From a virus, in UHGV virus genome UHGV-0324072: a stretch of DNA of 43,215 nucleotides. The stretch is one strand, 5' to 3'. Position 1 is the first letter of the stretch; each line of letters opens with the position of its first letter. The notes under the pieces are model-generated. The model worked only from the letters and a program-made list of their open reading frames with translations. It was not told the DNA's origin and did no database searches. Both the position numbers and the translations under genes were made by a program. Positions 957 to 29,395 of this stretch are shown here, piece after piece.

Positions 957-1225
957 ACCCGGTTCTCCCACTGGTCAATTAAATGTCGTGTCTTGTGGTC
1001 ACAATGCATCGCCCAGCTATACATCGACTCGAAGACATAAAAGTCACTTTTAACGAATGTCGTGCGCTTAATCTGCGACAGGTGACGGCCTATATCTTTC
1101 GGCTTCGGTACTTTGCCGAGGTAGGCCATCTCTTCCATCTGGTGCGCGCCGGACGGCGCACGCAACAGCCACAACGCCTCTGTGTTACCCCGTCGGTCAA
1201 TACCTCGGTAGAGTTGGTAAATCAT
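953..1225 (-). CDS. hypothetical protein (90 aa)
   Basis: ORF track; ATG at 1225 with GAGGG RBS; coupled to downstream gene. Confidence 0.5.
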   Translation of the reverse strand: MIYQLYRGIDRRGNTEALWLLRAPSGAHQMEEMAYLGKVPKPKDIGRHLSQIKRTTFVKSDFYVFESMYSWAMHCDHKTRHLIDQWENRV

Positions 1226-1893: not shown

Positions 1894-2109
1894 ATGCAAC
1901 CATCTGAACTAGGCATCCGTGTAGAACAACGCCGCAAAGAACTCGGCATCTCCCAGCGCCGTTTGGCGGCCCTGACCGGCGTTTCCCAGGGCGCGATTAA
2001 CCAACTGGCACTTGGAGTAACTCAGGACGTCCGCCCGGCAACGCTGTTCAAACTGGCGGAAGTTCTGGAAGTAGACGCCAAGTGGCTGGCGTTAGGTGAA
2101 GGGGCTTAA
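1894..2109 (+). CDS. XRE/Cro-type helix-turn-helix transcriptional regulator (71 aa)
   Basis: ORF track; ELGISQRRLAALTGVSQGAINQL HTH-like segment; RBS AAGGAG 9 nt upstream. Confidence 0.6.
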   Translation: MQPSELGIRVEQRRKELGISQRRLAALTGVSQGAINQLALGVTQDVRPATLFKLAEVLEVDAKWLALGEGA

Positions 2110-22787: not shown

Positions 22788-23200
22788 TGGGCTACTTTGA
22801 GGACTTAACCAAAGCGTTTGATGTGCCGCTGGTGGCCTTCGGAACCACCAACGGCATCAAAGTCGCGCTTGAAAACATCGACGCGCCGACGTCAACCGAT
22901 ACGCCGTATCTTGCAAGTTACATGTTACTGGCGGATACCGAGCAGGCGGATTTGTTCTTCACGGAACAACGCTCTGGTATTTATCAGGTCGACATTAACT
23001 ACGCATCGGCGAAAGGTAGCGCGGAAATCAATAAAATGGCAGACTTACTTAACACGGCGTTTAAAGCAGGTAAGTCATTTTCACGTAACGACATCTGCGC
23101 CGAGGTTCAATCGGTTAGCCTGGGGCCGCTGATTGTAGAAAACGGATGGGCCAAACGGCCATTGTCAATTAACTTTATAGCATTCACCAAGAGGCTGTGA
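22787..23200 (+). CDS. putative tail completion protein (137 aa)
   Basis: position. Confidence 0.35.
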   Translation: MGYFEDLTKAFDVPLVAFGTTNGIKVALENIDAPTSTDTPYLASYMLLADTEQADLFFTEQRSGIYQVDINYASAKGSAEINKMADLLNTAFKAGKSFSRNDICAEVQSVSLGPLIVENGWAKRPLSINFIAFTKRL

Positions 23201-23202
23201 AT

Positions 23203-24369
23203 ATGGCTACAACTCCTTTTAAGGGCGCGAATACCGCGCAATTCTATGTGGCGGAAGTGACCCCGGGTGTAACACCGACTAACCCGGTCTGGTCACCATT
23301 ACGTAACACGGGCGGTGTTCCTGCCATTACCCGTGACACACTGACCTCCAACGAACTCGACGGCAGCCGTGAAACTACATCCATCCGCACCGGTAACAAA
23401 CAGGTTAGCGGTGAATACGCAATTGAGCTTAGCTCTAAAAGCCAGGATGACTGGTTGGCAGGTGCTTTAGGCTCTACGTGGCGATCCGGTGTTTCTCTGC
23501 CAGGACTATCGATCACCGTCGCACCCGCGGGCAAGACGTTCACACGCGCTACCGGCAGTTTTATCACTGACGGAGTTGGGGTAGGCGACCTGATTGCGTT
23601 TACCGACTTAACAGGCGATAACGCAAAACCATTTATTGTTACCGCAGTAACGGCTACCGTTGTTACTGGTGCAGGCATCCAACACACCCTGACCACCGAG
23701 ACAAAAACTAGTAAGGCTAAAACTGGCGACACGCTGGAAACCGGTAACACATGTAAGACGTTCTCTATTCTCACCTGGTACAAAGGACAGTGCGGCGGGA
23801 CTTACGCATACACACTAACCAAAGGTGTGGAAGTTTCCGGTTTCACCGTTGAGCAGGCCGTTAACGCGATGGTTACAGGTAGCTTCCCGTTCATCGGGCG
23901 CAGCCAGGAGATTCTTACTACGCCGCCGTCTGGTTCCAACTTCTCCTCTGTCACGTTTGGTGATGAGCCATTCTCCTCGGTTGACGTTTCTGTGTTTGAC
24001 GGCTATACGCCGTTGCGTTGCGACAGCCTGACCATCACCAACGACAACAGCGCATCCGCGCAGTTCGAACTCGGCAACACTAACGTAGCGTTTGTAGAAC
24101 GTAACCGCGCGGCTAACACCTTCTCCATCTCCGGCAAGCTGTATGACATGGCGATGATTCAGAAGTTTATCAACGAGCAGCAGGTAGAGATTAACTCTAT
24201 TCTGGCGGGGGTAAACGGGGCTATGTCTTTCAGTTTGAAACGTGCGGAGCTTACGGCAGTTACCCCAGAGATTGGCGGACCTGAGTCAATCACTCAGTCC
24301 ATTGAAGGCCAGGCTACTGGCAACCAGTACCAGTCGTCTATTGTTATTCAGCGTATCACCTACGCATAA
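23203..24369 (+). CDS. major tail protein (tail tube)
   Basis: ATG 23203 (RBS AGAGG); about 390 aa, Thr/Gly-rich; followed by a strong terminator; called by position. Confidence 0.55.
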   Translation: MATTPFKGANTAQFYVAEVTPGVTPTNPVWSPLRNTGGVPAITRDTLTSNELDGSRETTSIRTGNKQVSGEYAIELSSKSQDDWLAGALGSTWRSGVSLPGLSITVAPAGKTFTRATGSFITDGVGVGDLIAFTDLTGDNAKPFIVTAVTATVVTGAGIQHTLTTETKTSKAKTGDTLETGNTCKTFSILTWYKGQCGGTYAYTLTKGVEVSGFTVEQAVNAMVTGSFPFIGRSQEILTTPPSGSNFSSVTFGDEPFSSVDVSVFDGYTPLRCDSLTITNDNSASAQFELGNTNVAFVERNRAANTFSISGKLYDMAMIQKFINEQQVEINSILAGVNGAMSFSLKRAELTAVTPEIGGPESITQSIEGQATGNQYQSSIVIQRITYA

Positions 24370-24398: not shown

Positions 24399-24629
24399 TT
24401 ACTCATCAATGTTACTCCTGTACTCCCGTAACTTTTCCAGACTTTCAATTGCTTCCGCTAAGTCGGTTCCGGTGTCCTTGTGTCCACGTAAACCCATGCA
24501 CAATAGCTTCTTCAATGCGTGCTGTAACGCCGGGTCGCGGATGTCGAAAGCGCGGAGCACATCATAAACGTCTACTGTCATAGTGCTGCCGTGAGTATTT
24601 GTCATTGTGCGGTTGTATTTTGAAGTCAT
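24399..24629 (-). CDS. small protein (76 aa), possibly DUF3310-like; third gene of reverse cassette
   Basis: ATG 24629 overlaps stop of upstream gene (ATGA); VYDVLRAF...QHALKKLL motif recalled from DUF3310. Confidence 0.4.
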   Translation of the reverse strand: MTSKYNRTMTNTHGSTMTVDVYDVLRAFDIRDPALQHALKKLLCMGLRGHKDTGTDLAEAIESLEKLREYRSNIDE

Positions 24630-25756
24630 CCCAGCATCTCCGGTGAAATAGTTAAACGTGCGACCTCGCCATATTCGGCGCTATAAGTAATTACGTTTGC
24701 GCTACGCCCAGACATCCATCCGCCGCGCGAGGCGTAGGCGTCTTTCGCCGCTAAGGTGCGGTGTTGCTCAACAATCATGTTACGGCTTTCTACAATCTTC
24801 TGGTGGTGCAGGTGGCCTACGTGGGCGTAGCTGTAAACACTCTCGCCGAACGCTTTACGGAACTTGGCAATCATAACCGGTTCGATAGCGTAGAATCGTG
24901 CTTTATGCCCGTGATGGAAGAACAGCGTCGTTTTGCCGTGTTGCACCATCTTGTAAACATCCGGCGACGTATCAACAATCACTCGGCTGTCGTTTGAGTA
25001 TAAAACCGTGAACATTTCGGCAAGCCATACGGAGCCAACAGGGTCGTGGTTACCTTGAACGATTAAAAGTTTTACTGTGTGATGCTTAACCAGCGCCATA
25101 TCAACAACACGGCGGACCATACGAATCATGTAACGTACCAGTTTCTGATAGCGAGTATCCGCATCTAATACATGGCGCGACTCGGGGGTAACGGCATCAA
25201 GACTATCGAAGTGTGCGAAGTCCCCAAGCAGGTTAATAACTCCTGTTCCTGCATCCGGTGCTTTCTGAAACGCCGCGTCGAACCACCGAGAGAACAGGTC
25301 TTCTGCAATCTTCATGTCCCAGTCGTCGCCGCTCTCATCGGCCCATGCCAGCATACCGAGATGGAAATCAGATACAGTGTAAAGATTGAGTAGCTTGTCG
25401 TCACGTTTGGCGCGCGCCGCTTTAACAGGCGCAACGGGCGTAATCTCTGACTTCATGCCCTCTATTACGGCTTTCATCAATTCAACCTGACGTTCGGCGT
25501 CGGTATCAGTCTTAACCCATTGCAACTTAGTGTTGCCGAACTCGTCCACAAGTGACGACGTTCCTTTAATCTTGTAGCCGTCTGGCACAAGGTGGCTAAC
25601 GTCGCGCCCGTGGCCCACGCCTTTCTTAGCCAGCTTCGCTTTACGGATACGAATTACGCGGTCTGAGATGCCGTATTTACGGGCGATATCTACATTCTTC
25701 ATACCGGCGTTCAATTCTTCCTGCAACTGTTCGTCGGTTATTTTCTTCCGGGCCAT
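24626..25756 (-). CDS. N-terminal HTH fused to calcineurin-like (Mre11/SbcD-type) metallophosphoesterase
   Basis: phosphoesterase motifs in order: SDFHLG, LGDFAHFD, QGNHD, FFHHGHK, GHLHH; N-terminal KNVDIARKYGISDRVIRIR HTH-like segment; RBS GAGGA. Confidence 0.6.
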   Translation of the reverse strand: MARKKITDEQLQEELNAGMKNVDIARKYGISDRVIRIRKAKLAKKGVGHGRDVSHLVPDGYKIKGTSSLVDEFGNTKLQWVKTDTDAERQVELMKAVIEGMKSEITPVAPVKAARAKRDDKLLNLYTVSDFHLGMLAWADESGDDWDMKIAEDLFSRWFDAAFQKAPDAGTGVINLLGDFAHFDSLDAVTPESRHVLDADTRYQKLVRYMIRMVRRVVDMALVKHHTVKLLIVQGNHDPVGSVWLAEMFTVLYSNDSRVIVDTSPDVYKMVQHGKTTLFFHHGHKARFYAIEPVMIAKFRKAFGESVYSYAHVGHLHHQKIVESRNMIVEQHRTLAAKDAYASRGGWMSGRSANVITYSAEYGEVARLTISPEMLG

Positions 25757-25820
25757 GCTTATTCCTCGTGCTTAGGATTTGTCCTATTTAACCACAGTGG
25801 ATTCCTTTAAATAAAGGCAA

Positions 25821-26147
25821 CTATTTACTTTCTGCGCCTATCGCCCACCCTGTCATTACCATTTGCAGACGGGTGGCTGTCAGTAGGCTATAGAAAGCAT
25901 CTCCGTTTTTCTCTACCGAACGTATCACTGTGTAGGTTACGGCCTGCGGGGGTAGGTCCGATTTACCAACCTCTACAGCGGCCTCACACTCGCGAACCGT
26001 AGAGTCCTTAAATGCCTTTACGATAGTAGGGTCAGCTTTCTCAAGCACACCAGAAGTCATAAGAACAGATTCAGTAAATACCTGTTCGCACGGGGACCCA
26101 AAAGTAGCAAAAGGCATAAACCCCAGAGCTAATACTAATTTACGCAT
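25821..26147 (-). CDS. secreted/periplasmic protein (108 aa) with N-terminal signal peptide; first gene of reverse cassette
   Basis: MRKLVLALGFMPFATFG signal-like N-terminus, two Cys; RBS GAGGA; promoter at 26176..26204. Confidence 0.5.
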   Translation of the reverse strand: MRKLVLALGFMPFATFGSPCEQVFTESVLMTSGVLEKADPTIVKAFKDSTVRECEAAVEVGKSDLPPQAVTYTVIRSVEKNGDAFYSLLTATRLQMVMTGWAIGAESK

Positions 26148-26175
26148 AATTATTTCCTCAGTAAGTTACAGGTGA

Positions 26176-26204
26176 ATAGTACACTATTATATTGGGGTGT
26201 GCAA
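26176..26204 (-). promoter_or_regulatory. promoter TTGCAC-N17-TACTATTCA (minus strand) driving reverse cassette
   Basis: rc of 26176..26204; near-identical to 17053..17081. Confidence 0.5.
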
Positions 26205-26271
26205 GTAATGTGATAGAATAATTTTGCGCCTAGTGTCGCACACGAAAAGCGGGTGGTTCCCGTCTGGCGCA

Positions 26272-26298
26272 TTAACCTTAACCCGTAACCTCTTAACC
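26272..26298 (+). repeat. four closely spaced (T)TAACC direct repeats in leader of tail chaperone gene
   Basis: TTAACC TTAACC cg TAACC tc TTAACC. Confidence 0.6.
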
Positions 26299-26311
26299 AA
26301 AGGATTAAAGA

Positions 26312-26728
26312 ATGAAACTTTCTGATTTTTATTTTGCCGACCGCCACGCCGCCGGTACTAAAATGCCTATCCTTCTGCCCAGTGGTAAAGATTCCGGTGA
26401 ATGGTTGCAGGTCATCGGCCCCGATTGTGACGCTGGTGTTCGTGCGGGCCGTGCCTACACAACGGCAATTCGACGCCTTACGGAAGAACTTGCGCCATTA
26501 GATAAAGAGTGCGAGGCGCTGAATAACTGGGCGCGCTATAATGATGAGAAGGGCTGGCGGGTGATGGACCTGAACAAGCAGCTTGCCGTGGAAATCGTCA
26601 CCGGTTGGTCATTCGACGAACCATTCAGCAAAGAGGCGCTTGCTAACCTGTTAGACCAGTACAGTGGGTTGGCAGAGGCCGTAGTTAAGCATCACACCGA
26701 TAGCCGTGAGAAACTCTCGGAAAAGTAA
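26312..26728 (+). CDS. tail assembly chaperone (lambda gpG-like)
   Basis: 138-aa ORF directly upstream of tape measure gene; RBS AAAGGA. Confidence 0.5.
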   Translation: MKLSDFYFADRHAAGTKMPILLPSGKDSGEWLQVIGPDCDAGVRAGRAYTTAIRRLTEELAPLDKECEALNNWARYNDEKGWRVMDLNKQLAVEIVTGWSFDEPFSKEALANLLDQYSGLAEAVVKHHTDSREKLSEK

Positions 26729-27090
26729 AAGCGCTGTATGAATTTGCGCAATGGTGCTTTGTCGACCGCCACAAACGTAAGCAATTCGACGACATCGCGG
26801 CGGGCCACCAGGCGGCTTTGATTGCAATGGGCGTGATTAAAGAACCGCAGATGAAAGAAGCGACGGGGCCGGAATGCCCCGTTTCTCTTATCGACGTGTT
26901 CGAGAAATACCGTGCCATTAAATTCCTACAGCGCGAAACAGATGATACTATCGTTATAATCCCGCGCGATGCGCTCAAATGGCAAGATTTGGTAGCGTTT
27001 CGTTATGTCGCCGGTTACGGCATAAGTTTGTTCGAAGCCGAGGTTATCATGGGCTTAGACGGAATATTTGAGGGCAGAGAAGATGGCTGA
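26710..27090 (+). CDS. -1 frame extension of chaperone (candidate gpGT-like frameshift product)
   Basis: -1 frame opens at 26710 and runs to 27090; GGAAAAG slip-like heptamer (26719..26725) directly before the G stop codon; T-frame stop overlaps tape measure start. Confidence 0.4.
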   Translation, partial: ETLGKVKALYEFAQWCFVDRHKRKQFDDIAAGHQAALIAMGVIKEPQMKEATGPECPVSLIDVFEKYRAIKFLQRETDDTIVIIPRDALKWQDLVAFRYVAGYGISLFEAEVIMGLDGIFEGREDG

Positions 27091-29395
27091 TACGGCTTCC
27101 CTAATTGCCAGAGTAAAAACAGAAGGCGCTGATGTAGCCGCTAAACAGCTTGACGCTATGGCGGCATCCGCAGACCGTGCGGACACATCCGTAAACAAAC
27201 TAACGCCGGATGTTAATAAAGTAAACTCCGCTACGTCTAAAGCGGCTTCTGACGGTTTCGCTAAATTCCGTAACGCCGCCGGGCAGGTAGGCTTCCAGGT
27301 GCAGGACATGGTCGTCCAGTTGCAGTCCGGCACGTCTGCATTCGTAGCAATCGGGCAACAAGGCTCTCAGCTTGCGGGTGCTTTCGGCCCTGGTGGCGCG
27401 GTGCTTGGGGCCGTAATTGCTCTTGCGTCAGCAATCGGTGGTGTCCTGTATAAATCGTTAACCGAAGCAGAAGGCAGTTCAAAAGACCTCGAAGCCGCGC
27501 AGAAACAGTTAAAAGATACTTTCCAGCAAACGGCATCTGGCTCTCTCGAGCTGACAGACGGCCTTATCCAGCTTACCCAAATCAGCAGAGAGGCGGCAGA
27601 GACTCAGCTTGCTCTGGCTAAGGCCAACGCGGACCTTATCGCGCAGCAAACAGCTAAAGCCGTTCGTGAGGACGCAGAATCGTGGGAAACATGGAAAGCA
27701 TCCACGGCATCGGCGATTAGCCAGTACGATGCACTGACCTCTAAGGGTGCTGATGTAGGTGACACGTTAGAAAAACTCGGTGGTACTTACGAGGGTAACA
27801 TCGTAGGCGTCAACATGCTGGCGCAGAATATCGCGGAGCTTAGCAGTAAGTTCGGAGTTAACCGTGACCAGGCGCTGGAGATGATAGCGGCGCAGAGTGC
27901 GTTTAACAAAGAGCCAACCGCCGAGAATGCCCGTCGCATCGCCGATGTGTTTACCGACTGGCTCGGTAACACAAAACAGTTGAACCCGGAACTTATCCGC
28001 CTGACGGACAACGCCAACAAGAACGCCACGGCACTGGAGAACGCGGAGAAGTCAGCAAACGCGGCGGCAGAGGCCCAAAAGAATCTTGGTCGCAACGTCA
28101 ACTCAACCACGCAGAGATTCCAGGAACAGAACGAAGCTATCGTCAAAAACCAGCAAATCGCCATCTTAAGCGACCGTGAGCGTATCCGGGCGCAAGCTGA
28201 ACTTGATAAACAGGCGTTCGCTAAACGTGAAGCCGTCACCAAAGAACAGATAGCCGCGTATAATGCGGCCCGCGACGCGGAAGCGCAGCAAGACATCGCC
28301 CGCATTGACAAGACCGAGAAAGAGAAGGCCGACCGCGAGGCTAAATCGAACGAGGAACGTCTGGCGGCACAAGCCAAACGCGAAGAAACAGCGGCACAAC
28401 GTCAGAAAAAAGCGGCGGAAGATTTCCTGGCTACTGTCGACCGCACAACCGGAGACGAAATTTCACGTATCACAGCGGCAGAAGAACAGAAACTGGCGAA
28501 ACTTGAAGAGTTCAACCGCGCCGGAACGATAAGCCAGCAGCAGTACGAAAACGCCAAAACTCAAATTATGCTCACCGCCGAGCAGGCCAGACAGGAAGAA
28601 CTGGATAAGAAAAGAAAAGAGCAGCAGGAAAAGCAGCAGAAAGGCGACGACTTCATGGCCCAGATTATAGGTCAGAACGCCGCTGAGCTTGAGCTTCTCG
28701 ACATCCAGGAACAGCAGAAACTGTCGGTAGCAGATAAGTACCGCGAGCAGGGTTTGATTAGTGAGAAGCAGTACCAGGCGGCGCTTAACGCCATCAATGA
28801 GCAGTATGCTACGAAGCGTGCCGACGCAACGGCAACGGCCTTCGGTAACATGGCTTCAAACATCGGTTCGGCTTTGGGCGAGGCTTCTGGCGCGTATAAG
28901 GCATTCGCTATCGTACAGGCCACTATCGCCACGTACACCGCGGCTATCGAGGCGTACAAGTCCACAGCGGCTATCCCTGTAGTTGGTCCGTTCCTGGCTC
29001 CTGTAGCTGCCGCCGCTGCCGTTGGGGCGGGTATGGCGCAGATTTCCGCTATCAGGTCCGCACGTGAACAGGGCGGACAGTTATCAGCCGGGCAGGCTTC
29101 CACCATCGCTGAACGTGGTAAACCAGAAGTTATCATGCCCGCTGGTGCGTCACGTGTACGCACCGCACAGCAGATGAAAGAGATTATGGGACAAAACGGG
29201 TCTTCTTCCGGCCCATCTAATGTTACCATTGTAAATAATACATCGAGTCAGATTGGCAACGTATCCACCGAGCAGGATGATGAAGGCCGTCTGCGTATCA
29301 TCATAGAAGAGCAAGTTGCTGCATCTTTGCAGAACAGCAACAGTAAGATTAGCAAGGCCCGCAAGGCCACAAGAAACGCGCCGGGGTTTAAATAA
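27083..29395 (+). CDS. tail tape measure protein
   Basis: 770 aa, Ala/Gln/Glu-rich helical; ATG 27083; longest tail-module ORF. Confidence 0.8.
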   Translation: MADTASLIARVKTEGADVAAKQLDAMAASADRADTSVNKLTPDVNKVNSATSKAASDGFAKFRNAAGQVGFQVQDMVVQLQSGTSAFVAIGQQGSQLAGAFGPGGAVLGAVIALASAIGGVLYKSLTEAEGSSKDLEAAQKQLKDTFQQTASGSLELTDGLIQLTQISREAAETQLALAKANADLIAQQTAKAVREDAESWETWKASTASAISQYDALTSKGADVGDTLEKLGGTYEGNIVGVNMLAQNIAELSSKFGVNRDQALEMIAAQSAFNKEPTAENARRIADVFTDWLGNTKQLNPELIRLTDNANKNATALENAEKSANAAAEAQKNLGRNVNSTTQRFQEQNEAIVKNQQIAILSDRERIRAQAELDKQAFAKREAVTKEQIAAYNAARDAEAQQDIARIDKTEKEKADREAKSNEERLAAQAKREETAAQRQKKAAEDFLATVDRTTGDEISRITAAEEQKLAKLEEFNRAGTISQQQYENAKTQIMLTAEQARQEELDKKRKEQQEKQQKGDDFMAQIIGQNAAELELLDIQEQQKLSVADKYREQGLISEKQYQAALNAINEQYATKRADATATAFGNMASNIGSALGEASGAYKAFAIVQATIATYTAAIEAYKSTAAIPVVGPFLAPVAAAAAVGAGMAQISAIRSAREQGGQLSAGQASTIAERGKPEVIMPAGASRVRTAQQMKEIMGQNGSSSGPSNVTIVNNTSSQIGNVSTEQDDEGRLRIIIEEQVAASLQNSNSKISKARKATRNAPGFK

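What the first reader, a model, noticed from the sequence alone, without database searches (positions are those of the whole stretch)
26704..27090. Candidate -1 programmed frameshift (gpG/gpGT-like) at the end of the tail chaperone gene
The chaperone ORF ends at 26726..26728. The -1 frame is open from 26710 to 27090 and the two frames overlap only over 26710..26725, which contains GGAAAAG (26719..26725), one base different from the lambda G/GT slippery heptamer GGGAAAG. The extension ends overlapping the tape measure start, matching the conserved frameshift organisation in long-tailed phages.
Basis: partly seen in the sequence, partly recalled or inferred. Interest (0 to 1): 0.4.

Follow-up and report, generated by a model that had tools for sequence, protein, structure and literature searches.

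The report
Tail-chaperone frameshift with long-range RNA helix

Summary
The window is a Kagunavirus (K1H-like E. coli siphophage).

**Frameshift.** G (26312..26728, 138 aa) and a -1 frame (open 26710..27090) overlap by 16 nt containing GGAAAAG. A slip gives a 259-aa G-T fusion ending 8 nt into the tape-measure gene. RefSeq K1H, fFiEco02, fTaEco03 and Pantoea AH01 already annotate this join, so the frameshift itself is known.

**Slip site.** Across 30 lineages (<90% nt identity) the conserved element is A_AAG, with a stop directly after it in 30 of 31 lineages. The preceding codon varies (GAA, GCA, GUA, UCA; GGA in one relative), so it is not a full X_XXY_YYZ heptamer. T-frame coding signal begins at the stop, and no start codon is conserved.

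**Helix (new here).** Five nt after the stop, an invariant block (26731..26746) pairs with 26919..26934 (15 of 16 positions). Support: compensatory changes, frozen synonymous sites (p = 1.5e-4), de novo RNAalifold and ensemble prediction, an empirical null of 164 control positions, and a second clade pairing the same 5' arm with a different partner about 125 nt away. Where the stop is displaced, the helix tracks AAG.

I infer that the helix stimulates the frameshift. No experiment supports this, and no paper or Rfam family describing it was found.

The parts
26312..26728 (+). Tail assembly chaperone gene G (138 aa), zero frame, ends ...SREKLSEK-TAA
   Evidence: ORF list. Pfam Phage_TAC_4 E = 7.7e-9. 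PHROG 15027 positions 1-138, E = 8e-66.
26707..26709 (+). TGA in the -1 frame that sets the 5' limit of where the shift can occur
   Evidence: Read directly.
26719..26725 (+). Shift site G_GAA_AAG. The conserved core is A_AAG (26722..26725). tRNA-Lys re-pairs from AAG to AAA.
   Evidence: A, A, A, G and the G at 26720 are invariant in 19 non-redundant lineages. Heptamers in 30 lineages: GGAAAAG 20, GGCAAAG 3, GGTAAAG 2, AGCAAAG 2, CGCAAAG 2, GTCAAAG 1. GGGAAAG occurs in L043.
26726..26728 (+). Zero-frame stop TAA directly abutting the shift site. It is also the first 3 nt of the 5-nt spacer TAAAA (26726..26730).
   Evidence: TAA or TAG follows AAG directly in 30 of 31 lineages; L071 is the exception. 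Lambda has five sense codons between its site and the stop.
26725..27090 (+). T extension in the -1 frame (121 codons plus TGA). The fusion G(1-138)+T is 259 aa with junction ...LSEK|VKALYEF...
   Evidence: Translation. Pfam Phage_TAC_18 E = 1.1e-16. PHROG 15027 positions 138-259. Protein alignment is conserved from residue 1.
26731..26746 (+). 5' arm of the long-range helix, GCGCUGUAUGAAUUUG (T-frame codons Ala-Leu-Tyr-Glu-Phe), starting 5 nt after the stop
   Evidence: GCGCTGT is invariant, including wobble positions.
26919..26934 (+). 3' arm, UAAAUUCCUACAGCGC (T-frame codons Lys-Phe-Leu-Gln-Arg). It pairs with the 5' arm as 8 bp, a U.C mismatch, then 7 bp. The loop is 172 nt and the duplex dG is -20.4 kcal/mol.
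   Evidence: pair list. The MFE fold of 26719..26950 closes with this helix, z = -3.1. Ensemble P = 0.99-1.00 in 490-540-nt contexts. RNAalifold finds it de novo.
26862..26883 (+). GC-rich hairpin GACGGGGCCGGAAUGCCCCGUU inside the enclosed loop (codes Gly-Pro-Glu-Cys-Pro). Its role is unknown.
   Evidence: Part of the MFE fold. Covarying stem in the group B alignment. Flagged as terminator-like.
27083..29395 (+). Tape measure protein gene. Its ATG overlaps the end of T (ATGGCTGA), with GAGGG 8 nt upstream.
   Evidence: PHROG 1538 E = 1.5e-198.

Best explanation
Most ribosomes translating G terminate at TAA 26726 and release the 138-aa chaperone. A minority slip back one base at G_GAA_AAG, when tRNA-Lys re-pairs from AAG to AAA. 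They then read GUA-AAA-GCG... to TGA 27090 and make the 259-aa G-T fusion, whose T domain is needed for tail assembly, as in lambda.

The slip site is weak and non-canonical. Only A_AAG is conserved, and P-site re-pairing is partial at best. I propose that two conserved features compensate.

1. The zero-frame stop lies directly 3' of AAG.
2. A long-range mRNA helix has its 5' arm starting 5 nt after the stop (26731..26746) and its 3' arm 172 nt further on (26919..26934). This puts a stable duplex at the ribosome's mRNA entrance while the shift site is being decoded. Almost all ribosomes stop before entering the T region, so the long-range pairing can stay formed.

Shown computationally: the frame organisation, its conservation, the lack of an independent start, and the existence of and selection on the helix.

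Inferred: that slippage occurs at A_AAG, that the helix and the stop raise its efficiency, and the ratio of products.
For: **Frameshift**
- Joined CDS in RefSeq K1H and three other relatives.
- Fused PHROG profile.
- In about 55 and then 132 loci, G ends NNA-AAG-stop with a -1 frame of about 120 codons open.
- Conservation periodicity switches frame at the stop.
- T-frame conservation starts at residue 1 and no start codon is conserved.
- Separate 'T' CDSs are annotated from CTG in Bas75 and from TTG in Shashou. That codon is CTG in 20 of 20 group A lineages.

**A_AAG as a shift site**
- The Atkins et al. 2016 review (PMC5009743) describes Z_ZZN as the minimal -1 site and A_AAG as shifty in E. 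coli, which has a single tRNA-Lys. It also covers the NNA_AAG context effect and use of the site by IS1222 and B. subtilis cdd.

**Helix**
- Perfect 8-16-bp complements in nearly all lineages.
- Found de novo by RNAalifold in both clades.
- Pair counts: group A 80.6% paired against 46% or less when slid, with covariation exceeded by 0 of 500 shuffles. Group B 83.6% against 50% or less, 6 pairs changed on both sides, 0 of 500.
- Empirical null: median best helix 10.5 at this anchor against a maximum of 7.0 over 164 control anchors.
- Synonymous sites in the arms are frozen: GCG, CTG, CAG and CGC each 20 of 20, Mann-Whitney p = 1.5e-4.
- Ensemble probability is at least 0.8 in 27 of 30 lineages, and the helix persists in 22-24 of 30 with about 500-nt context.
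- Core non-Watson-Crick cells are G.U 12 and A.C 0, which points to sense-strand RNA.
- The same 5' arm uses a different 3' partner (about +126) in a second clade.
- In L071 the stop moves one codon but the arm stays 5 nt from AAG.
Against: - There is no experimental datum for this phage group: no fusion protein, reporter assay or structure probing was found.
- Seven of the core pairs never vary, and compensatory events are few and concentrated in a handful of lineages (L014, L058, L080/L085, L068/L069). The shuffle control is known to overstate significance for related sequences.
- Both arms encode conserved peptide motifs in mirror-image register, so part of the complementarity could be frozen by protein constraints.
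- Two to eight lineages (for example L046, L047, L030) do not show the helix as the dominant fold in long contexts.
- Group B shows no G.U over A.C asymmetry (5 against 5).
- Lambda's G-T shift is not known to need a downstream structure (my recollection of Levin et al. 1993, not checked here), so a stimulator is not obligatory for this class.
- A helix closing a 172-nt loop may fold slowly in vivo.
Confidence: 0.6

Rival explanations
1. The -1 frameshift at A_AAG is real, but the long-range helix serves another purpose or none related to recoding. Possibilities are mRNA stability or protection from RNases, compaction of the largely untranslated T region, control of tape-measure translation or transcription, or damping rather than boosting the shift.
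For: The helix encloses the whole N-terminal two-thirds of T, including a GC-rich hairpin flagged as terminator-like. Lambda-type G-T shifts work with the heptamer alone (recollection, not checked). No correlation was seen between helix length and the quality of the heptamer (by inspection).
Against: The 5' arm starts 3-5 nt after the stop and 5 nt after AAG in all lineages, which is the classic spacer for -1 stimulators. In L071 it keeps its distance to AAG, not to the stop. When the 3' partner changed between clades, the 5' arm at the slip site was the part that stayed fixed.
Confidence: 0.25
2. There is no frameshift. The downstream ORF is translated on its own, either from ATG 26827 or TTG 26818, or from a codon just after the G stop as some records annotate.
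For: Gene callers report an 87-aa protein from ATG 26827, and it is present in public collections. The Met is present in about 15 of 20 lineages. Bas75, FSL SP-101 and Shashou annotate separate CDSs. The Shashou announcement states there is no canonical slippery sequence (PMC6776780).
Against: The 34 codons upstream of that Met are conserved as protein, with -1-frame codon periodicity starting at the stop. The Met is Phe or Ile in L004, L055, L016, L029 and L030. L029 has no ATG, GTG or TTG before codon 94. No SD-like sequence precedes ATG 26827. The 'start' just after the stop is CTG in this window and in 20 of 20 group A lineages. Shashou itself has GGAAAAG-TAG plus the helix.
Confidence: 0.04
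3. The apparent helix is not a selected RNA structure. It would be a by-product of two conserved peptide motifs (ALYEF and KF[ILV]QR) whose codons happen to be reverse complements, or a DNA-level inverted repeat.
For: Both arms are coding and their amino acids are conserved. Six to seven pairs never vary, so they carry no covariation information.
Against: Synonymous positions are frozen only in the arms: Ala GCG, Leu CTG and Arg CGC are each 20 of 20, while the same amino acids elsewhere in T mostly use 3-6 codons. Amino-acid replacements are compensated, for example Tyr to Leu together with Ile to Gln in L014, and three changes in L058. A second clade pairs the same 5' arm with an unrelated, out-of-register site. 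In the group A core there are 12 G.U cells and 0 A.C cells, which argues for sense-strand RNA rather than DNA. No control anchor reaches similar helices.
Confidence: 0.08
4. The frame change arises from transcriptional slippage or from a sequencing or assembly error, not from ribosomal slippage.
For: There is a short A run (AAAA) at the site.
Against: The same two-frame layout is present in more than 130 independent genomes and contigs. The A run is only 3-4 nt (GCAAAG in several lineages), far below the roughly 8-9 nt that polymerase slippage needs (established knowledge; see PMC5009743).
Confidence: 0.01

Closest known systems
Phage lambda gpG/gpGT programmed -1 frameshift (Levin et al. 1993; Xu et al. 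2004, as cited in PMC5009743)
   Same: Two overlapping ORFs sit just upstream of the tape-measure gene, with a -1 shift near the end of the first. The sizes are similar (140 aa for lambda G). The site ends in A_AAG. The T end overlaps the tape-measure start. G belongs to a TAC Pfam family and shows weak similarity to lambda G (E = 0.008 in a single comparison).
   Different: Lambda uses the canonical G_GGA_AAG and has five sense codons before the stop. Here the site is G_GAA_AAG (P-site codon variable across relatives), the stop abuts the site, and a conserved long-range helix follows. Three minus-strand genes also separate the tail tube gene from G.
A_AAG (Z_ZZN) -1 shift sites: B. subtilis cdd A_CGA_AAG and IS1222 G_CGA_AAG (PMC5009743)
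   Same: The conserved core is the tetranucleotide A_AAG decoded by tRNA-Lys. The 5' codon is not a slippery XXY codon. Efficiency is expected to depend on the NNA context.
   Different: The biological setting differs (phage tail chaperone), as do the 5' codons (GAA, GCA, GUA, UCA). The stop is directly adjacent, and the putative stimulator is a distant duplex rather than an upstream SD or a local structure.
E. coli dnaX A_AAA_AAG frameshift
   Same: Lys AAG occupies the A site, a downstream RNA structure follows after a short spacer, and the host group (Enterobacterales) has a single tRNA-Lys.
   Different: dnaX has a full heptamer, an upstream SD-like stimulator and a local stem-loop. Here no local structure is conserved within 105 nt, and the 23 nt upstream are variable with no SD-like block.
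Distant 3' stimulators: IS3411-type IS elements (partner 44-104 nt away) and barley yellow dwarf virus (about 4 kb) (PMC5009743)
   Same: The sequence next to the shift site pairs with a distant downstream element to form the stimulatory structure.
   Different: In those systems the loop or bulge of a local stem pairs with the distant element. Here the arm next to the site forms a plain 8-16-bp duplex directly with a site 115-190 nt away, both arms are coding, and the partner site differs between clades.
Burkholderia phage KL1 gp18/gp19 (PMC3483164)
   Same: The predicted g-t shift site lies immediately upstream of the stop codon of the short product.
   Different: KL1 has a canonical heptamer (GGGAAAC), and only a local stem-loop was suggested from 35 nt of mfold.

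Membership tests
Tailed-phage G/GT tail assembly chaperone frameshift (lambda type) | Two overlapping ORFs immediately upstream of the tape-measure gene and downstream of the major tail/tube gene | tested here: met
   G 26312..26728, T frame to 27090, TMP ATG 27083, tube gene 23197..24369. One deviation: three minus-strand ORFs (24399..26147) lie between the tube gene and G.
Tailed-phage G/GT tail assembly chaperone frameshift (lambda type) | The second ORF is in the -1 frame and has no start or RBS of its own that is conserved | tested here: met
   The -1 frame is open and the +1 frame closed in all relatives. Start-codon survey and protein alignment. The annotated 'starts' are CTG or TTG at a Leu codon.
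Tailed-phage G/GT tail assembly chaperone frameshift (lambda type) | A shift-prone sequence in the overlap, conserved among relatives | tested here: met
   A_AAG is invariant in 30 lineages at under 90% nt identity.
Tailed-phage G/GT tail assembly chaperone frameshift (lambda type) | Both halves belong to tail assembly chaperone protein families | tested here: met
   PF08748 Phage_TAC_4 E = 7.7e-9 for G. PF23812 Phage_TAC_18 E = 1.1e-16 for T. PHROG 15027 spans both halves.
Tailed-phage G/GT tail assembly chaperone frameshift (lambda type) | The fusion protein is made in vivo at a low fixed ratio and is required for tail assembly | not testable with these tools
   No proteomic or genetic data were found for Guernseyvirinae.
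Canonical X_XXY_YYZ tandem-slippage heptamer | Three identical bases XXX so that the P-site tRNA re-pairs fully in the -1 frame | tested here: not met
   The window has G_GAA_AAG. Relatives have G_GCA_, G_GUA_, A_GCA_, C_GCA_ and G_UCA_AAG. Only L043 has G_GGA_AAG.
Canonical X_XXY_YYZ tandem-slippage heptamer | YYYZ allows A-site tRNA re-pairing (A_AAG) | tested here: met
   A_AAG lies at 26722..26725 in the zero-frame register.
Z_ZZN (A_AAG) minimal -1 shift sites (cdd, IS1222) | In-frame A_AAG with a non-slippery 5' codon, in a host that has a single tRNA-Lys(UUU) | tested here: met
   The register is shown. Hosts of relatives are Enterobacterales. The single tRNA-Lys is stated for E. coli in PMC5009743; it was not tested here.
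dnaX-type stimulators | Local stem-loop within a few tens of nt 3' of the site, and an SD-like element about 10 nt 5' of it | tested here: not met
   RNAalifold on -7..+105 gives no consensus structure, single-sequence folds of +3..+63 have z-scores around 0, and the upstream 23 nt are variable.
IS3411 / luteovirus long-distance stimulators | A local stem next to the site whose loop or bulge pairs with a distant element | tested here: not met
   There is no local stem. The arm next to the site pairs directly with the distant arm. It may work in a similar way, but it is not the same architecture.
Any curated RNA family (Rfam 15) | A match of the slip-site or helix region to a covariance model | tested here: not met
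   No hit in 26300..27300 at E up to 1. The only hit is int-alpA-like, upstream of G.

The most novel reading that the evidence does not exclude
Guernseyvirinae-type siphophages use a previously undescribed kind of stimulator for their tail-chaperone -1 frameshift. It is a plain long-range mRNA duplex (8-16 bp, closing a 105-175-nt coding loop) that starts 5 nt after a minimal A_AAG-stop shift site. Its 3' partner has been exchanged between clades while the 5' arm stayed fixed. This would be the first phylogenetically supported long-range frameshift stimulator in a dsDNA phage g-t gene pair. It would also explain why annotators report 'no canonical slippery sequence' in this group.
Probability: 0.5. 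Interest if true: 0.6.

Novelty: new variant of a known kind. Interest (0 to 1): 0.45.

Why it matters
The frameshift itself matters only for annotation. Many records in this large, therapy-relevant phage group (Kagunavirus, Jerseyvirus and relatives) still list the T part as a separate 'hypothetical protein', sometimes from a CTG 'start'. One published genome note states that no slippery sequence exists.

The helix matters more. If it stimulates the shift, it shows that phage g-t recoding can rely on a minimal tetranucleotide site plus a distant RNA partner. Prediction tools that scan 50-100 nt downstream for heptamers plus local hairpins (for example PRFect) would miss this design.

The system is also tractable. 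It offers natural partner-switch variants and natural compensatory mutants for studying how long-range mRNA structure and an adjacent stop codon set a frameshift ratio in E. coli.

Tried and rejected
- **Local stimulator.** RNAalifold on -7..+105 gave no structure, and per-sequence folds of the first 60 nt after the stop had z-scores near 0. Rejected.
- **Upstream SD-like stimulator.** The 23 nt upstream are variable. The AGGA annotated as an RBS in Shashou lies inside the slip site and precedes a Leu codon that is CTG in most lineages. Rejected.
- **+1 frame.** It closes after 4-20 codons in nearly all relatives. Rejected.
- **Other slip positions in the 16-nt overlap.** None allows tRNA re-pairing and none is conserved.
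- **Rfam.** Nothing covers the site.
- **Exact look-up of the 259-aa fusion.** It is absent from the protein collection, so it gave no naming information.
- **Literature.** Searches for a described stimulator, or for experiments in K1H, Jerseyvirus or Guernseyvirinae, found none. One search failed on syntax.
- **Helix length against heptamer quality.** No obvious relation by inspection.
- **Distant relatives L050-L054 (31-36% identity in G).** They end differently (for example T-rich runs) and were not pursued.
- The expensive homology, structure-prediction and fold-search tools were not used because the answer did not depend on them.
Full report
**1. What is there**

The window is a Kagunavirus (Guernseyvirinae), a K1H/K1G-like E. 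coli siphophage. The 1-kb region around the finding is 99% identical to Escherichia phages 590B, BUCT789 and Bas72-76, and 95% identical to K1H.

- G is 26312..26728 (138 aa, ...SREKLSEK-TAA).
- The -1 frame has TGA at 26707..26709 and is then open to TGA at 27088..27090.
- The two frames can only be joined within 26710..26725.
- GGAAAAG lies at 26719..26725 as G_GAA_AAG.
- The tape-measure ATG (27083) overlaps the end of the extension.
- The fusion would be 259 aa.

G hits Pfam Phage_TAC_4 and the -1 frame hits Phage_TAC_18. PHROG 15027 is a 259-position profile that matches G at positions 1-138 and the -1 frame at 138-259. Fused proteins with exactly this junction (…EK|VK…) are therefore already in the phage protein databases.

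**2. The frameshift is already known for this phage group**

RefSeq K1H (NC_027994, gp21), fFiEco02, fTaEco03 and Pantoea phage AH01 annotate a two-piece joined CDS of 776-782 nt over the homologous genes.

Other records do not.
- Bas75 and FSL SP-101 list two separate 'tail assembly chaperone' CDSs.
- phiEap-2, SETP3 and Otaku list a 'hypothetical protein' starting at different internal codons.

**3. Comparative test of the frameshift**

I collected about 140 related loci from GenBank phages and IMG/VR. G identity in these loci falls to about 44-50%.
- In all of them G ends NNA-AAG-stop and a -1 frame of about 120 codons is open, apart from loci cut short. The +1 frame closes within a few codons.
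- In 19 non-redundant lineages, G-N-A-A-A-G-T-A-R is invariant while the flanks vary. The least-conserved codon position switches from the G-frame wobble to the -1-frame wobble immediately after the stop.
- The T-frame proteins align from their first residue (V-x-A-L-Y…W…FD-I…GH).
- That Met is Phe or Ile in five lineages. L029 has no ATG, GTG or TTG before codon 94. No SD-like sequence precedes ATG 26827.
- The codon some records use as a start just after the stop is CTG in this window and in Bas75, and TTG only in a minority such as Shashou.

Independent initiation is therefore not the conserved route.

**4. What the slip site really is**

In 30 lineages below 90% nt identity the heptamers are GGAAAAG (20), GGCAAAG (3), GGTAAAG (2), AGCAAAG (2), CGCAAAG (2) and GTCAAAG (1). 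One close variant, L043, has the lambda heptamer GGGAAAG.

The conserved element is therefore A_AAG. That is the minimal Z_ZZN -1 site, known to be shifty in E. coli with its single tRNA-Lys, and used at CGA_AAG by IS1222 and B. subtilis cdd (Atkins et al. 2016, PMC5009743). P-site re-pairing is partial for GAA (G-C, G.U, A-U) and poor for GCA or GUA; this is my inference.

The zero-frame stop follows AAG directly in 30 of 31 lineages. This freezes the first T codon as GTA, whereas another conserved Val column in T uses GTC, GTT and GTA. Lambda, read from its own sequence, has five sense codons between G_GGA_AAG and TGA. Burkholderia phage KL1 has a predicted site abutting its stop (PMC3483164), so adjacency has precedent. 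I infer, without a test, that a slow-to-decode stop in the A site lengthens the time window for slippage.

**5. An unexpected conserved long-range helix**

One search also showed a second invariant block, GCGCTGT, starting 5 nt after the stop. Its invariance includes the wobble positions.

In the window, 26731..26746 (GCGCUGUAUGAAUUUG) pairs with 26919..26934 (UAAAUUCCUACAGCGC). The helix is 8 bp, a U.C mismatch, then 7 bp. The loop is 172 nt and the duplex dG is -20.4 kcal/mol. The two arms are in-frame reverse complements (Ala-Leu-Tyr-Glu-Phe against Lys-Phe-Leu-Gln-Arg).

The MFE fold of 26719..26950 closes with this helix (-79.8 kcal/mol, z = -3.1). In 490-540-nt contexts the ensemble probability of the core pairs is 0.99-1.00.

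Other lineages have longer helices with different sequences:

| Lineage | Helix |
|---|---|
| Serratia phage Otaku (L057) | 15 bp, perfect |
| L014 | 14 bp, perfect; Tyr to Leu in one arm is matched by Ile to Gln in the other |
| Pantoea phage AH01 (L004) | 14 bp |
| L016 | 16 bp |
| phiEap-2 type | 13 bp |
| SETP3 type | 11 bp |

A second clade pairs the same 5' arm with a different, out-of-register site about 125 nt downstream. This clade includes fTaEco03/K1ind-type Kagunavirus, FSL SP-101-type Jerseyvirus, Shashou, L023, L031, L046 and L110. Its own compensated variants include GCGUUGUUUC with GAAACAACGC in L058, and GCGUUGCU with AGCAACGC in L080, L085 and Shashou.

**6. Tests of the helix**

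- **(a) De novo prediction.** RNAalifold predicts the helix without guidance in both clades.
- **(b) Pair counts with controls.** Group A (20 lineages): 80.6% of cells paired against 46% or less when the partner is slid, and 0 of 500 shuffles reach the covariation score. Pair 21/208 shows UA, CG, GC and UG. Group B (10 lineages): 83.6% against 50% or less, six pairs with changes on both sides, 0 of 500.
- **(c) Empirical null.** For the anchor just after the stop, the median best long-range helix is 10.5 effective bp and 90% of lineages reach 7.5 or more. Over 164 control anchors in G and T, the maximum median is 7.0 and the maximum fraction is 43%.
- **(d) Synonymous sites.** Within the arms, Ala is GCG, Leu CTG, Gln CAG and Arg CGC in 20 of 20 lineages. 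Ala, Leu and Arg at conserved non-arm columns mostly use 3-6 codons, while Gln is mostly CAG elsewhere too. Mean wobble entropy is 0.23 against 1.17 bits, Mann-Whitney p = 1.5e-4.
- **(e) Thermodynamics, independent of the alignments.** Mean pair probability is at least 0.8 in 27 of 30 lineages in the minimal context. The helix is the dominant contiguous partner in 22-24 of 30 with about 500 nt of context.
- **(f) Strand.** In the group A core, the non-Watson-Crick cells are 12 G.U and 0 A.C. This is expected for sense-strand RNA and not for a DNA repeat. Group B is uninformative at 5 against 5.
- **(g) What the helix tracks.** In L071 the stop is displaced by one codon (AAG-TTA-TAG), but the arm still starts 5 nt after AAG and pairs at the group A site. 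The helix is positioned relative to the shift site.

Caveats: seven core pairs never vary, compensatory events are few, the shuffle control overstates significance for related sequences, and a handful of lineages do not show the helix as the dominant fold in long contexts.

**7. Mechanism proposed**

Most ribosomes terminate at TAA 26726. A minority shift -1 on A_AAG and make G-T.

The 5-nt spacer puts the base of the helix at the mRNA entrance when GAA and AAG occupy the P and A sites. This is the geometry of classical -1 stimulators. The difference is that the duplex is formed with a partner 115-190 nt away instead of a local hairpin or pseudoknot. No local structure is conserved, and no SD-like element lies upstream.

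Because nearly all ribosomes stop before the T region, that region is rarely translated and the long-range pairing can persist.

Confidence by step:

| Step | Confidence |
|---|---|
| A -1 programmed frameshift makes G-T | about 0.9 |
| The shift occurs at A_AAG | about 0.85 |
| The helix is a selected RNA structure | about 0.8 |
| The helix stimulates the shift | about 0.6 |

**8. Comparison with known systems**

In function and gene order this is a member of the lambda G/GT class. The family features that could be tested are met, except the canonical X_XXY_YYZ heptamer.
- The site works like the A_AAG sites of cdd and IS1222.
- The putative stimulator resembles, in principle, the distant partners of IS3411-type elements (44-104 nt) and of luteoviruses. 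It lacks their local stem and so is not a member of those architectures (PMC5009743).
- Rfam has no model for it.
- Four literature searches found no description of it and no experimental work on g-t frameshifting in Guernseyvirinae. The searchable library omits many subscription papers, including Xu et al. 2004, so prior description cannot be excluded.

**9. Verdict**

Taken alone it is ordinary and already annotated in near-identical genomes. What raises the interest is the conserved minimal A_AAG-stop site combined with a phylogenetically supported long-range helix at stimulator distance, whose partner switches between clades. I classify this as a new variant of a known kind, pending experiment.

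Noticed in passing
window 26223..26287 (+), with L002 1524..1588, L059 1524..1588 and L141 1423..1487: A full-length but sub-threshold match to Rfam int-alpA RNA (RF02996; 31.6-32.5 bits against a gathering score of 35.8; E = 2e-4 in the window). It lies in the 5' leader of the G-T-tape-measure genes, just downstream of a promoter-like site at 26165..26193, and sits at the same position in three Kagunavirus genomes.
   Followed up: partly
window 26862..26883 (+): GC-rich hairpin GACGGGGCCGGAAUGCCCCGUU followed by a U-rich stretch, inside the T ORF (codes Gly-Pro-Glu-Cys-Pro) and inside the loop of the long-range helix. It is flagged as terminator-like. The homologous stem shows compensatory changes in the group B alignment (columns 148-167).
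   Followed up: partly
window 24399..26147 (-): The tail gene module is interrupted. Three minus-strand ORFs lie between the tail tube gene (23197..24369) and G: a 76-aa ORF, a 376-aa protein annotated as metallophosphoesterase or 'DNA repair exonuclease' in relatives, and a 108-aa ORF with a hydrophobic N-terminus. Some relatives carry a superinfection-immunity gene at this spot.
   Followed up: no
L043 (IMG/VR 2974654489_000001) 1908..1914; L071 around 1196..1213: Two natural variants are useful for experiments. L043 carries the canonical lambda heptamer GGGAAAG where its closest relatives have GGAAAAG. L071 has the zero-frame stop displaced by one codon (AAG-TTA-TAG) while keeping the helix 5 nt from AAG.
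   Followed up: yes
L001 2035..2037 (Bas75); L141 1919..1937 (Shashou); L058 1112 (FSL SP-101): Public annotations of the T part are inconsistent. Some give a separate CDS starting 6 nt after the G stop, at CTG in Bas75 and TTG in Shashou. Shashou's annotated RBS is the AGGA inside the slip site. Other records start at varying internal codons or annotate the join.
   Followed up: yes
protein collection cluster of window 26312..26725 and 26827..27087: The 138-aa G protein and the 87-aa ORF from ATG 26827 are reported as members of one 90%-identity cluster, although they do not overlap in sequence. A fused member may bridge them.
   Followed up: no
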